From assembly GCF_009914755.1 (NCBI RefSeq), contig NC_060927.1: a stretch of 64,000 nt of DNA; one strand, written 5' to 3'. The position numbers and the translations under genes were made by a program. The DNA is from the human T2T-CHM13v2.0 reference genome, Homo sapiens. The notes under the pieces are model-generated. The model was not told the DNA's origin and made no database searches. It was given only the letters and a program-made list of their open reading frames with translations. Below, piece by piece: positions 2,455-28,800 of the stretch (its first letter is position 1; each line of letters starts with the position of its first letter).

Positions 2455-2831
2455 TGATATGATTTGGCTGTGTCCCCACCCAAAATCTCATCTTGAATTA
2501 TAATCCCCATAATCCTCACGTGTCAAGAGAGACAAGGTGGAGGGAACTGAGTCATGGGGGCGGTTTCCCCCATGCTGGTACTCGTGATAGTGAGTGAGCT
2601 CTCACGAGATCTGATGGTTTTATAAGTGTTTGGTAGTTTCTCCTGCGTTCATTCTCCCCTCTGCTGCCTTGTGAAAAAGATGCCTTGCTTTCCCTTTGCC
2701 TTCTGCCATCATTGTAAGTTTCCTGAGGCCTCCCCAGCCATGCAGAACTGTGAGTCAATTAAACCTCTTTCCTTTCTAGATTACCCAGTCTCAGGCAGCT
2801 CTTTATAGCAGTGTGAGAACAAACTAGTACA
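2455..2831 (+). mobile_element. THE1-type (THE1D-like) MaLR solo LTR, copy A
   Basis: TGATAT...TACA termini, MaLR core CCTCCCCAGCCATG...TGTGAGTCAATTAAACC; CCTCC on both flanks (imperfect TSD). Confidence 0.9.
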
Positions 2832-2909
2832 CCTCCAATATGCTAAATTTCTTTAAAAATACAAATACCAATGTATAAAACAGAATCAAGAAATATACTG
2901 CAACATTAC

Positions 2910-3005
2910 CTGTGCACCAAGATCCTTCATGTAGGGTCCAAGTTCACTAAACAGATCATATCCTTGATGAAAGAAGGCCAAATGGGCATACATAAATGAC
3001 AACAT
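2910..3005 (-). CDS. ACAP2: ACAP2 exon 8 (96 nt): MLSFMYAHLAFFHQGYDLFSELGPYMKDLGAQ
   Basis: ttccctattag|ATGTTG...GCACAG|gtaatg; phase 0-0. Confidence 0.96.
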
Positions 3006-23714: not shown

Positions 23715-24650
23715 TTTAACTTTTAGGTTCAGGGGTGCATGTGCAGGATGTGGAGGTTTGTTACATAGGTAAACGGGTGTCACAGGGATTTGTTATACAG
23801 ATTATTTCATCACCCAGGTATTACACCTACTATCCATTAGTTATTTTTTCTGATCCTCTCCCTCCTCCTACCCTCCCACTCCAATAAGCCACAGTATGTG
23901 TGGTTCCCCTGTATGTGTCCATGTGTTCTCATCATTTAGCTCCCCCACTTATAAATGAGAACATGTGGTATTTGGTTTTCTGTTCCTGTGTTAGTCTGCT
24001 AAGGATAATGGCCTCCAGCTCCATCCATGTTCCTGCAAAGGACATGATCTCATTCTTTTTTATGGCTGCATAGTATTCCATAGTGTATATGTACGTATGC
24101 ATTTTCTTTATCCAGTCTACCACTGATGGGCATTTAGGTTGATTCCACGTCTTTGCTGTTGTGAATAGTGCTGCAATGAACATACACATACATATGTCTT
24201 TATAATAGAACTATATTCCTATGGTTATATACCCAGCAATGGTATCTCACCCAGCTGATGTGAGATGGTATATCTCATTGTGGTTTTGATTTGCACTTCT
24301 CCAATGATCAGTGATGTTGAGCTTTTTTTATATGAGTGTTAGCCACATGTATGTCTTCTTTTGAGAAATGTCTGTTCATGTCCTTTGCCTGCTTTTTAAT
24401 GGGGTTGTGTTTTTCTTTATAATTTAAGTTCCTTATAAATTCTGGATATAAGAGCATTATCAGATGAATAGTTTGCAAATATTTTCTCCCGTTCTATAGG
24501 TTGTCTGTTTACTCTGCTGACAGTTTCTTTGATTGTGCAGAAACTCTTTAATTAGATCCCATTTGTCAATTTTTGCTTTTGTTGCAGTTGCTCTTAGCAA
24601 CTTCATCGTGAACTCTTGGCCCATACATATATCCTGGATACTACTGCCTT
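23715..24650 (-). mobile_element. L1PA-type 3' end with an internal deletion
   Basis: MFIAALFTTAKTWNQPKCPS... peptide and L1 3'UTR; jump in L1 continuity near 24245. Confidence 0.85.
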
Positions 24651-25809
24651 TAAAATGTAACATTACCAAAATTAAATTTTCTATACACTTGAATAGAATG
24701 TCAAGTATTTCATGAAATTAGATGTCAGTAATCTAGACTATTTACTGGCTTTGTTTTGGAGACAAGAGTCTCACTCCATCACGCAGGCTGGAGTGCAATG
24801 GCATGATCTCAGCTCACTGTTACCTGTACTTCCCAGGTTCGAGCAATTCTTGCGCCTTAGCCCTCTGAGTAGCTGGGACTACAGGCATGTGCCACCATGC
24901 TCAGTTGATTTTTGTATTTTTACCAGAGACGGGGTTTCGCCATGTTGGACAGCCTGATCTCGAACTCCTGACCTCAGCCTCCCAAAGTGCTGGGATTACA
25001 GGTGTGAGCCACTGTGCCCAGCCACAATAATGTAGGCTATATACTTTTAATACTTCCATTAGTGTGAAAAGTATGTTGTCAATAAAGCAACAGTTCTGTC
25101 TCTGACTTGCCAATTCTCAAGCCACAGCTATCTAACAGCTAATTCTTTTCTTTTTCTTCTTTTTTTTTTTTTTTTGGTAGTTATTGTTGTTCTTAAAGCC
25201 CTTCCTCATGGACAGCTAACTCTTTTCTATATTAAACTGCTACACAGAAATTCCTCAATTCATCTACTGGTATCTAAGTCTCCAGTCTATACTTTCCCAG
25301 GAGAAAATTCACACATTTTCCCATCATAAAAAGTTTAAAAGCCACCAACAGAAAAGCTAAGGTTCACTTATATTTCTGGAAATTAACAGTATTATTCCAA
25401 GCAACACATGTATTACAAATAATCAAAAATGTCAGTTGACCAATCTGCTCATTATAAAATGAACTTACAAAAGTGCATAGAATAATATATGACTCTTTAA
25501 AACCAACAGCTCACACTAAAGTTATTCCTCATACATGTATGACCACAGTTAAAGCAGCACTATCTCTGCTCTCTTCAGGAAAGGAGGAAAGCTAAGACGC
25601 ACTTCAAAGATCTAGTCCAGAAAGGTTAGTAAAAGAGTAGGCTGCATAACCATAGAGAGCATTATCCCCATTTCCAGTTCTTACAAGTAAGGTGACTTTG
25701 GCTCTAAGTATACATTTTGTAGTTTCAAGTCCTTGTGATTTATTTAAATATTATTCAGGGCCAGGCAAAAGACTCCATTGCAACAAAAATTAAAAATAGA
25801 AACAAGCTG

Positions 25810-28800
25810 GAATGGGAGGCAGAGCAATATGGCCAAATAGAAGCCTCCACCGATTGTCCTCCCTGCAGGAACACCAAATCTGACAACCACCTACACAAAA
25901 AGCACCTTCATAAGAACCAAAAATCATGTGAGCAATCACAGTACCTTCATATTGCTGAAAGAGGCAGTGAAGAGGATAGAAAAGACAGTCTTGAATTGCT
26001 GACCCCAGCCCTCCCCCATGCGCTCGTAGCAACCACAGGGCACAGAGGAAGAATCTGCGCTGCACACGGGGAAAGAGCACAGCAACTGTGGGACTACAAG
26101 CCGGAACGCAGTGCTGCCAATCCCGGCAGAACTCAGCCAATGCCAATGAATGGAGCATTTAGACCAGCCCCAGGGACAGGACAATCACACAGCCTGGAGG
26201 TTGGAACTGGAGTTTCTGCAAGCCTCGCCACCACAGGCTAAAGTGCTCTGGGGTCCTAAATAACAGTAAAAGGCAGGCTAGGTCACAAGGACTGTAACTC
26301 CTAGGCAAGTTGTAGTGCTGGGCTGGGCTCAGAGCCAGTGGACTTGGAGGTACATGACCTAGTGAGACACCAGCCAATGCGGCTAAGGGAGCGCTTGTGT
26401 CACACATCTCCCAATCAAAGGCAGGAAGGCTCCCAGCTCCAAAAGAGATTCCGTCCTTCTCCTTGAGAAGAGGAGAGGAAAGGATAAACAGGACTTTGTT
26501 TTGCAACATAAATACCATCTCAGCCACAGTTGAATAAGGCATCAGGCAGAGTCGTGAGGTCCCCATTCTAGGCTCTAACTCCCGGGTGATATTTTTAGAC
26601 ACACCCTGGGCCAGAAGGAACCTGAAGGGAAGGATCAAGTCCAGGAAGAATTCACCACTTGCTGACTAAAGAGCCCTTAGACCCTGAATAATCACCAGCA
26701 GCAACCAAGTAACACACACTGTGGGCCTCAGCTAAGACTCAGACATGCAGACTTCAGGTGTGACCCGGCATATTCACAGCTGCGGTGGCTACGAGGAAAG
26801 ACTCCTTCTGCTTGAGAAAAGGGGAGGGAAAAATAAAGGGGATTTTGTCTTGCAGATTAGGTACCACCTCAAACATAGTTGGGAGGAGCACCAAGTGGGT
26901 TCGTAGGGTCCCTGATTCCAGAGAACACTGGACGGCACCTCTGGAACTACCCTAAGCCAGAAGGGAACTCACTGCCCTGAAGGGTGGGTCCCAGGAATGG
27001 CGACATTCATGAAAAGCTGAGCCCTTGGGCCTTAAGTGAACAGTGACAACATTGTGGCAGTACTCCCTGTGGGCCTGTGTGGAGGTGGACACAGGGGGTG
27101 ACTCCACTGCCTGGGGAGAGGAAAGGGATGGGTGGGAAGGACTGTGTCTTTTGATTTCAGTACCAGCTTAAACATAGTTGAATACAGTGCCAGGGAAATT
27201 TCTAAGGTTTCCGATTGCAGGCCCTGACTTCCAGGCACTCTGAACCTGTCCGGAGCCTGGAGCCCAGAGGAATTCACCACCCCGAAGGGAAATACACAAG
27301 AATGACTAGCTTCAGCCACTCTTGAAATAATGACTATAGCCTGAGTGCCTTAAGAGAACACAGCTTGCAGCCAGGTAATAGTTACAGCAGGACATGGGCA
27401 AGACACGGTGCTTTGCTGGCTTCAGATCTGACGAAGTACAGTCCCAACGATGGCGGCGACAGGAGTGCTTGTATCACCCCTCTCCAAGCTGCAGGCAGCT
27501 TAGCCAGAGAGAGAGAGAGACTGCACTCATTTTGGAGAAAGTAAGGGAAGAAAACAAGAGTCTCTACCTGGTAATCCAGAGAATTCTTCCAGATGTTATC
27601 CAAGACCACAGTATTAGTCCATTCTCACACTGCTATAAAGAACTGCCTGAGACTGGGTAATCTAGAAAGGAAAGAGGTTTAATTGACTCACAGTTCTGCA
27701 TGGCTGGGGAGGCCTCAGGAAACTTACAATGATGGCAGAAGGCAAAGGGAAAGCAAGGCATCTTTTTCACAAGGCAGCAGAGGGGAGAATGAACGCAGGA
27801 GGAATTACCAAACACTTACAAAACCATCAGATCTCATGTAATGCAATCACTATCACCAGAACAGCATGGGGGAAACCACTCCCATGATCCATTTAGCTCC
27901 ACCTGGTCTCTCCCTTGACACGTGGGGATTATGGGGATTACAATTCAAGATGAGATTTGGGTGGGGACACAAAGCCTAACCATATCAACCACCAAGCTGG
28001 TATCTCTATAAGTGTCCAAGAACTACAGCATTACTAGTCTTGGGGTGCCCTCTAATGCAGATACAGCTGTAGGGACCAAAAACCTAGATAATAACAACTA
28101 AGTAGGTTTGAATACTTGGATAGCCTTCTCAAGAAGGATGAGTACAAACAAGCCCAGACTGTGAAGCCTACAATAAATATCTAATTCTTCAATGCCTAGA
28201 TAATCACAAATATCCACTAGCATCAAGACCATTGAAGAAAACATAACCTCATCAAAAGAACTAAATAAGGCACCAGGGGCAAATCGGAGCAATGGAGATA
28301 TGTGACCTTTCAGACACAGAATTCAAAATAGCTGCTCTGAGGAAACTCAAAGAAATACAAGATAACAGAGAAGAAATTCAGAATCCTATCAGATGAATTT
28401 AACAAAGAAATAATTTTTAAAAACCAAGCAGAAATTCTAGAGTTGAAAAATGCACTTGATATTTAAAGAACGTATCAGAGTCTCTTAACAGCAGAACTGA
28501 TCAAGCAGAAGAAAGAATTCCTGAGACTTATGAGCCCTGTTTAAAAACAGAGAAGAAAAAAGAATAAAAAAGAATGAAGCATCCCTGTAAGATCTAGAAA
28601 ACGGCCTCAATAGCAAATCTAAGAGTAAGGTAGAAAGAGAGAAATAGAAAGTTTATTCGAAAGGATAGTAACAGAAAATTTCTGAAACTGAGAGAAAGAT
28701 ACAAAACTTCAAGTAAAAGAAGGTTATAGAATACCAAGTAGATTTAACCCATTATTAGTTTAATAATCAAATTCCCAAAGATCAAGGATAAAGAAAGGAT

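What the first reader, a model, noticed from the sequence alone, without database searches (positions are those of the whole stretch)
2455..27987. Two inverted THE1 solo LTRs 25 kb apart share a 159-bp perfectly identical tract (apparent ectopic gene conversion)
Seen: 2640-2798 is the exact reverse complement of 27643-27801 (159 bp, checked block by block). It extends to 180 bp with one mismatch. The remaining halves (2455-2600 versus 27840-27987) differ by many substitutions and indels. The shared tract includes what look like non-consensus bases (for example TTTCTAGATTACC where I recall TTTATAAATTACC). Copy B keeps its own ACCAC TSD and copy A has CCTCC flanks, so these are independent insertions with no net inversion or duplication. 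Known: THE1 LTRs are old anthropoid insertions, and independent copies are normally clearly diverged. Inference: recent non-allelic gene conversion homogenised them, which implies physical pairing and a possible substrate for inverting exons 5-8.
Basis: partly seen in the sequence, partly recalled or inferred. Interest (0 to 1): 0.8.

Follow-up and report, generated by a model that had tools for sequence, protein, structure and literature searches.

The report
Gene-converted tract between two inverted LTRs
Two old retrotransposon remnants lying head to head 25 kb apart in introns of the human ACAP2 gene have had a 159-base stretch copied from one to the other, a clean but ordinary example of a known DNA repair process.

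Summary
Window 2640-2798 is the exact reverse complement of 27643-27801 (159 nt). It lies inside two inverted solo LTRs, A at 2455-2831 (+) and B at 27610-27987 (-). Each has its own 5-nt target-site duplication and unrelated flanks.

Outside the tract the copies are as diverged as any two family members. The 5' part is 80.8% identical, against a mean of 79.7% over 2484 other pairs. Inside the tract identity is 100%, against a mean of 84.3% and a maximum of 93.7% for other pairs.

A whole-genome search with the tract finds only A and B at 100%; the next best hit is 92%. The same stretch of 4 of 4 control copies has no partner above 93%.

The tract carries 13 sites where A and B share a base held by under half of 69 other copies. 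The 5' part has no shared base held by under a quarter of them, and 17 copy-private ones.

Non-crossover ectopic gene conversion is the best reading (about 0.88). Its 95% upper age bound is 4-19 My, depending on the rate assumed. Donor, human specificity and inversion risk remain untested. This kind of event is already described for human LTRs and Alus.

The parts
2455..2831 (+). Copy A: solo LTR of a THE1-type (MaLR) element, 377 nt, TG...CA ends
   Evidence: Read directly. A whole-genome search gives thousands of dispersed relatives (7578 first-look candidates; the 40 scored are 85-100% identical). The family name is recalled, not tested.
2449..2453 (+). Left target-site duplication of A (CCTCC), followed by one extra T at 2454
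   Evidence: Direct reading
2832..2836 (+). Right target-site duplication of A (CCTCC)
   Evidence: Direct reading
2640..2798 (+). Converted tract in A: 159 nt identical to the tract in B. It may extend to 2819 if the difference at 2799 arose later.
27610..27987 (-). Copy B: solo LTR of the same family, 378 nt, inverted relative to A, ends TG...CT
   Evidence: Direct reading; 91% identical to A over the full length
27643..27801 (-). Converted tract in B, the exact reverse complement of 2640-2798
27988..27992 (-). Upstream target-site duplication of B (GTGGT on the - strand, ACCAC on +)
   Evidence: Direct reading
27605..27609 (-). Downstream target-site duplication of B (GTGGT on the - strand)
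   Evidence: Direct reading

Best explanation
Two solo LTRs of one MaLR (THE1-type) family inserted independently, in opposite orientation, into two ACAP2 introns. They then diverged like any other copies. Much later a break or lesion in one LTR was repaired using the other LTR, 24.8 kb away, as template. The most likely route is synthesis-dependent strand annealing without crossover, so about 159 nt (at most about 180 nt) of the donor replaced the acceptor's sequence.

Shown: the exact tract, its sharp bounds, its uniqueness in the genome, the shared minority bases, and the intact flanks and target-site duplications.

Inferred: the repair pathway, the timing (under about 4-19 My), and whether the event was meiotic or mitotic in the germ line. 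The direction of transfer is unknown.
For: (a) Mosaic identity. The tract is 100% identical, against 80.8% in the 5' part. Among 2484 other pairs of 71 aligned copies, tract identity has mean 84.3% and maximum 93.7%, and the longest exact run has median 29 and maximum 91.

(b) Uniqueness. A whole-genome search with the tract gives only A and B at 100%; the next best hit is 92% (40 scored of 1372 candidates).

(c) Control. The equivalent 159 nt of 4 of 4 other copies have best non-self hits of 88-93%.

(d) Shared minority bases. In the tract there are 13 sites where A=B carry a base held by under 50% of 69 other copies. Three are held by under 10% (2659, 2710, 2779) and six by 10-25%. There are 0 differences in the tract. 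In the 5' part there are 0 shared bases held by under 25% of the others, but 9 A-private-like and 8 B-private-like sites.

(e) Statistics. 0 of 200000 shuffles reach a run of 159, and the Poisson P is 2e-12.

(f) Independent insertions without crossover. Each LTR has its own matching target-site duplication. The flanks do not align. The only other homology between the neighbourhoods is Alu-like.

(g) Tract length fits published LTR conversion tracts, whose maximum lengths run 14-450 bp with mean 99 bp (PMC4921805, passages read).
Against: - No orthologues from other primates and no other human haplotypes could be examined, so the pre-conversion state was never seen directly.
- At the time of transfer the partners were probably only about 85-90% identical. 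That is poor substrate for homologous repair, although Alu conversions at similar divergence are described in the review PMC6598467 (passages read).
- No PRDM9-type 13-mer lies in either LTR, at 0 mismatches or up to 1 mismatch. Nothing therefore points to a programmed meiotic break there.
- The genome searches score only the best 40 candidates, so a further identical copy is very unlikely but not strictly excluded.
Confidence: 0.88

Rival explanations
1. Replication-based template switching (fork stalling or microhomology-mediated break-induced replication). A stalled fork in one LTR copied about 160 nt from the inverted partner and switched back. The sequence outcome would be the same as gene conversion.
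For: Inverted repeats in cis are classic substrates for this (established knowledge). The pattern does not tell this apart from recombinational repair.
Against: Two precise in-register switches with no insertion, deletion or junction scar are needed. The tract ends show none. A simple non-crossover conversion is more economical.
Confidence: 0.05
2. Assembly or polishing artefact in this assembly. One copy's tract was overwritten by reads from the other.
For: It cannot be excluded with the tools here, because no reads and no second human assembly are available.
Against: Inference only. The tract is 159 nt, set in unique flanks, and far shorter than long reads. The partners are otherwise only about 81% alike, so reads would not mis-map. 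The tract ends are clean, and both copies are found as separate places in the genome search.
Confidence: 0.03
3. No transfer took place. A and B descend from one rare source element whose 3' part already had these bases (for example a recombinant transcript), and the tract stayed identical by chance or constraint.
For: Some shared bases are linked among other copies. 2658C with 2744A has r = 0.57 and 11 of 69 carriers, so part of the shared pattern is sub-subfamily signal.
Against: Since insertion the non-tract parts gained 38 differing columns in 225. The same rate predicts about 20-27 differences in the tract, and 0 are seen. No other copy of such a source exceeds 92% identity. Three shared bases are nearly unique: 2710C in 1 of 69, 2779G in 1 of 69, 2659C in 4 of 69.
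Confidence: 0.02
4. Both copies were converted by a third donor that is now deleted or was not sampled.
For: LTRs on the Y chromosome receive tracts from many donors across the genome (PMC4921805).
Against: This needs two events with identical end points. No third copy above 92% exists among the scored hits.
Confidence: 0.02

Closest known systems
Ectopic (non-allelic) gene conversion among human LTRs (Trombetta et al. 2016, Sci Rep, PMC4921805; abstract and passages read)
   Same: Short tracts are moved between dispersed LTRs, solo LTRs included, with no rearrangement. The published maximum tract lengths of 14-450 bp include 159-180 nt.
   Different: That study used polymorphism on Y chromosomes and 14 subfamilies. 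Neither THE1 nor MaLR is mentioned in its main text (0 occurrences). Here the evidence is a fixed mosaic in one assembly, on an autosome, between inverted copies 25 kb apart in cis.
Homogenisation of neighbouring Alu elements by non-allelic gene conversion (Aleshin and Zhi 2010, known to me only as cited in the review PMC6598467, passages read; the paper itself is not held)
   Same: Old, diverged dispersed repeats that lie close together in cis become locally identical.
   Different: The review reports elevated rates for copies within 10 kb. This pair is 24.8 kb apart, and they are LTRs rather than SINEs.
Conversion between the two LTRs of a single provirus (Kijima and Innan 2010, known only as cited in PMC6598467)
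   Same: LTR-to-LTR transfer in cis.
   Different: Those LTRs are direct repeats of one insertion. Here there are two separate insertions, each with its own target-site duplication, in inverted orientation.
Arm-to-arm gene conversion in large inverted repeats and palindromes (recalled, not looked up here)
   Same: Inverted orientation in cis, with non-crossover transfer.
   Different: Palindrome arms are kilobases long and more than 99.9% identical throughout. Here only 159 nt of 377 are homogenised and the rest is about 81% identical.

Membership tests
Interlocus (ectopic) gene conversion tract | A discrete stretch of much higher identity, bounded by paralogous sequence of normal divergence | tested here: met
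   100% identity in 2640-2798 against 80.8% in 2455-2602. Other pairs have mean 84.3% and maximum 93.7% in the tract columns. 0 of 200000 shuffles reach the observed run.
Interlocus (ectopic) gene conversion tract | Partners share derived or minority variants inside the tract that other family members lack | tested here: met
   13 shared minority sites in the tract, 3 of them in under 10% of 69 copies. No shared base held by under 25% of the others in the 5' part. The genome-wide next best match is 92%.
Interlocus (ectopic) gene conversion tract | No exchange of flanks (non-crossover) | tested here: met
   Each LTR keeps a matching pair of target-site duplications, and the flanks are unrelated.
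Interlocus (ectopic) gene conversion tract | The pre-conversion state is seen in an outgroup orthologue or another haplotype, giving donor, acceptor and date | not testable with these tools
   Only this one assembly is held for this species. Tests on paralogues for the donor were not significant (Spearman 0.11, p 0.37; Mann-Whitney p 0.27).
THE1-type MaLR solo LTR | About 350-380 nt with TG...CA ends and a 5-nt target-site duplication, with no internal sequence attached | tested here: met
   A is 377 nt, TG...CA, with CCTCC on both sides (offset by 1 nt). B is 378 nt, TG...CT, with GTGGT on both sides. That these values define THE1 is recalled.
THE1-type MaLR solo LTR | Thousands of dispersed copies in the genome | tested here: met
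   7578 and 7405 first-look candidates for A and B. All 40 scored in each search match at E of 7e-114 or better.

The most novel reading that the evidence does not exclude
The transfer is young: hominine- or human-specific and perhaps still segregating. The same pairing of the inverted LTRs that produced it may also yield occasional crossover products. That would be a recurrent or polymorphic 25-kb inversion turning round four ACAP2 coding exons (59+184+45+96 = 384 nt by the hub's table, a whole number of codons).
Probability: 0.1. Interest if true: 0.55.

Novelty: new member of a known kind. Interest (0 to 1): 0.3.

Why it matters
This is a clear single-locus example of old, roughly 19%-diverged dispersed repeats still exchanging sequence over 25 kb.

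- Such exchanges distort age estimates made from repeat divergence.
- They can confuse short-read variant calling inside repeats.
- They show that the two sites met physically in the germ line.

A 228-nt inverted repeat of 96% identity now brackets four coding exons of ACAP2 and is a conceivable, though weak, substrate for inversion. None of this is new in kind. Ectopic conversion among human LTRs and Alus is in print (PMC4921805, PMC6598467).

Tried and rejected
- Donor and acceptor. I asked whether other copies that share the tract's minority bases resemble A or B more closely outside the tract. Neither test was significant (Spearman 0.11, p 0.37; carriers of 2658C+2744A against the rest, p 0.27). 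Hints from the hit lists pointed both ways and were dropped.
- PRDM9 hotspot motif as the cause of the break. The 13-mer has 9 matches in the window, none in either LTR, and none within 1 mismatch in A or B.
- Wider homology that could have aided pairing. Only Alu-like matches of 72-89% link the two neighbourhoods, and none is adjacent to the LTRs.
- A larger or second tract. The stretches next to the tract (2603-2639, 4 of 37 differ; 2799-2832, 7 of 34 differ) are not clearly below background.
- Two LTRs of one element. Rejected, because they are inverted and each has its own duplication.
- The paper by Aleshin and Zhi is not held.
- Print searches: 'ACAP2' + 'inversion' + 'inverted repeat' gave 0 papers. 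'THE1' + 'gene conversion' + 'MaLR' gave 8 papers, none on this locus judging by title and abstract start.
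Full report
**What is there.** The window holds exactly two copies of one LTR family.
- Copy A is at 2455-2831 on the + strand.
- Copy B is at 27610-27987 on the - strand.

Read directly, A runs from TG to CA. It is flanked by CCTCC at 2449-2453 and 2832-2836, with one extra T at 2454. 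B runs from TG to CT and is flanked on its own strand by GTGGT at 27988-27992 and 27605-27609 (ACCAC on the + strand). The sequences beyond these duplications do not align. The only other homology between the two neighbourhoods is Alu-like, at 72-89% identity. These are therefore two independent solo LTR insertions in inverted orientation, with 24,780 nt between the repeat arms.

By the hub's gene table they lie in two different ACAP2 introns. Four coding exons lie between them (2910-3005, 6814-6858, 12354-12537, 15142-15200), and A ends 78 nt from the first of these. No repeat library is available here, and I built no consensus of the family.

**The observation.** Window 2640-2798 equals the reverse complement of 27643-27801 at 159 of 159 bases, and this is the longest exact run. 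The nearest differences are at 2639 and 2799, and the next to the right is at 2820, so the stretch is 180 nt long with one mismatch. In a pairwise alignment of the whole LTRs, 38 of 384 columns differ, none of them in the tract:

| Segment | Differing columns |
|---|---|
| 2455-2602 | 26 of 153 |
| 2603-2639 | 4 of 37 |
| 2640-2798 (tract) | 0 of 159 |
| 2799-2832 | 7 of 34 |

With the 38 differences placed at random, 0 of 200000 shuffles gave a run of 159 or more; the largest was 115. At the non-tract rate about 27 differences are expected in the tract (about 20 counting substitutions only), giving a Poisson P of 2e-12 (2.6e-9).

- With the 159-nt tract as query, only A and B match at 100%. 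The other 38 scored hits are 87-92% identical (40 scored of 1372 first-look candidates).
- As a control I searched with the equivalent 159 nt of four other copies (L003, L020, L025, L077). In 4 of 4 the best non-self match was 88-93%, and none had an identical partner.

From the three searches with A, B and the tract I kept 90 loci, which reduce to 71 distinct copies including A and B, and aligned them. This sample is biased towards copies most like A, B or the tract, which makes the comparison conservative. Over the 2484 pairs other than A-B:

| Region | A-B | Other pairs, mean | Other pairs, max | Rank of A-B (of 2485 pairs) |
|---|---|---|---|---|
| Tract columns, identity | 100% | 84.3% | 93.7% | 1 |
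| 5' part, identity | 80.8% | 79.7% | not relevant here | 1069 |
| Longest exact run | 159 | median 29 | 91 | 1 |

**Shared against private changes.** I counted, column by column, how many of the 69 other copies carry the base seen in A or B.
- In the tract, A and B agree everywhere. At 13 sites they share a base held by fewer than half of the others.
  - Three are held by under 10%: 2659C in 4 of 69, 2710C in 1 of 69, 2779G in 1 of 69.
  - Six are held by 10-25%.
  - Four are held by 25-50%.
- In the 5' part no shared base is held by under 25% of the others. Nine sites have A unusual with B common, and eight have the reverse.

This is what is expected if one copy's accumulated private changes were written over the other's in the tract only.

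**Mechanism.** The best reading is non-crossover ectopic gene conversion. A lesion in one LTR was repaired from the other, and about 159 nt (up to about 180) of donor sequence replaced the acceptor's. The intact duplications around each LTR show that no crossover, and hence no net inversion, accompanied it.

The pathway (synthesis-dependent strand annealing) and the cell type are inferred. A replication template switch would leave the same pattern, and I rate it a minor rival.

The partners were poor substrates. Outside the tract they differ at about 17% of columns, so at the time of transfer they were probably only 85-90% alike. This is unusual for homologous repair but is in line with what is described for Alu elements (review PMC6598467, passages read).

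No PRDM9-type 13-mer lies in either LTR (none within one mismatch). Nothing therefore marks the site as a programmed meiotic hotspot.

**Date and direction.** Zero differences in 159 nt gives a 95% upper bound that depends on the per-lineage rate assumed:

| Rate per site per year | 95% upper bound |
|---|---|
| 0.5e-9 | 18.9 My |
| 1e-9 | 9.4 My |
| 2.2e-9 | 4.3 My |

Relative to the LTRs' own divergence, the tract is younger than about 15% of their age. The event is late in the life of these insertions, but it need not be human-specific. The donor could not be identified; two tests on the paralogues were not significant. Orthologues from other primates would settle both points, and they are not available here.

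**Rivals.**
- A shared rare source without transfer is contradicted by the absence of any post-insertion difference in the tract and by the lack of other copies above 92%.
- A third donor needs two events with the same ends, and no such copy is found.
- An assembly artefact cannot be tested without reads. It is unlikely for a 159-nt stretch in unique flanks between sequences otherwise about 81% alike (inference).

**Comparison with what is known.** Ectopic conversion among human LTRs, solo LTRs included, was shown from Y-chromosome resequencing. Maximum tract lengths there were 14-450 bp with mean 99 bp, and donors lay on many chromosomes (PMC4921805; abstract and passages read). That paper does not mention THE1 or MaLR. 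A review summarises the same process for Alus, with higher rates for copies within 10 kb (PMC6598467).

I found no paper on this locus. 'ACAP2' + 'inversion' + 'inverted repeat' gave 0 papers. 'THE1' + 'gene conversion' + 'MaLR' gave 8 papers, none on it by title and abstract start. These searches cover only the held library.

**Verdict.** The finding is a new, clean instance of a known process rather than a new kind of thing.

**Still open:**
- the date of the event,
- the donor,
- whether the tract is polymorphic,
- whether the now 96%-identical 228-nt inverted arms ever mediate inversion of the four exons between them. By the hub's table these exons sum to 384 nt, a whole number of codons.

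Noticed in passing
window 7575-58683 (nine sites, e.g. 7575-7587, 30433-30445, 58671-58683): The degenerate 13-mer PRDM9 hotspot motif occurs 9 times, against 0.8 expected from shuffles. Eight of the nine sites read CC[G/A]CCTTGGCCTC, which looks like a fixed Alu position. None lies in the two LTRs.
   Followed up: partly
window 1737-2037 versus 29339-29641: An inverted pair of Alu-like repeats at 88.8% identity over 303 nt also brackets the region, just outside the LTR pair. I did not look for a conversion mosaic in it.
   Followed up: no
window 2832-2909: Copy A ends only 78 nt from the ACAP2 coding exon at 2910-3005 (hub table). The converted tract therefore lies within about 110-270 nt of a splice site on the opposite strand.
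   Followed up: no
window about 27505-27525 (- strand reading): A short CT dinucleotide run lies about 85 nt beyond copy B's downstream duplication.
   Followed up: no
G000:C1:83451426-83451584: One copy on contig 1 appears in the hit lists of all five 159-nt queries: the tract and the four controls. It is the best non-self hit for three of them. It probably carries few private changes.
   Followed up: no
G000:C23:118437040-118437193 (+) and C23:118549380-118549533 (-); also C1:120399001, C1:145789689, C1:148367260: Sets of copies with identical scores to a control query. They probably lie in large duplicated segments (an inverted pair 112 kb apart on contig 23, and three places on contig 1) rather than being further conversion events.
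   Followed up: no
window 2910-15200: The four coding exons between the two LTRs sum to 384 nt (59+184+45+96, hub table). Their loss from the transcript would keep the reading frame.
   Followed up: no
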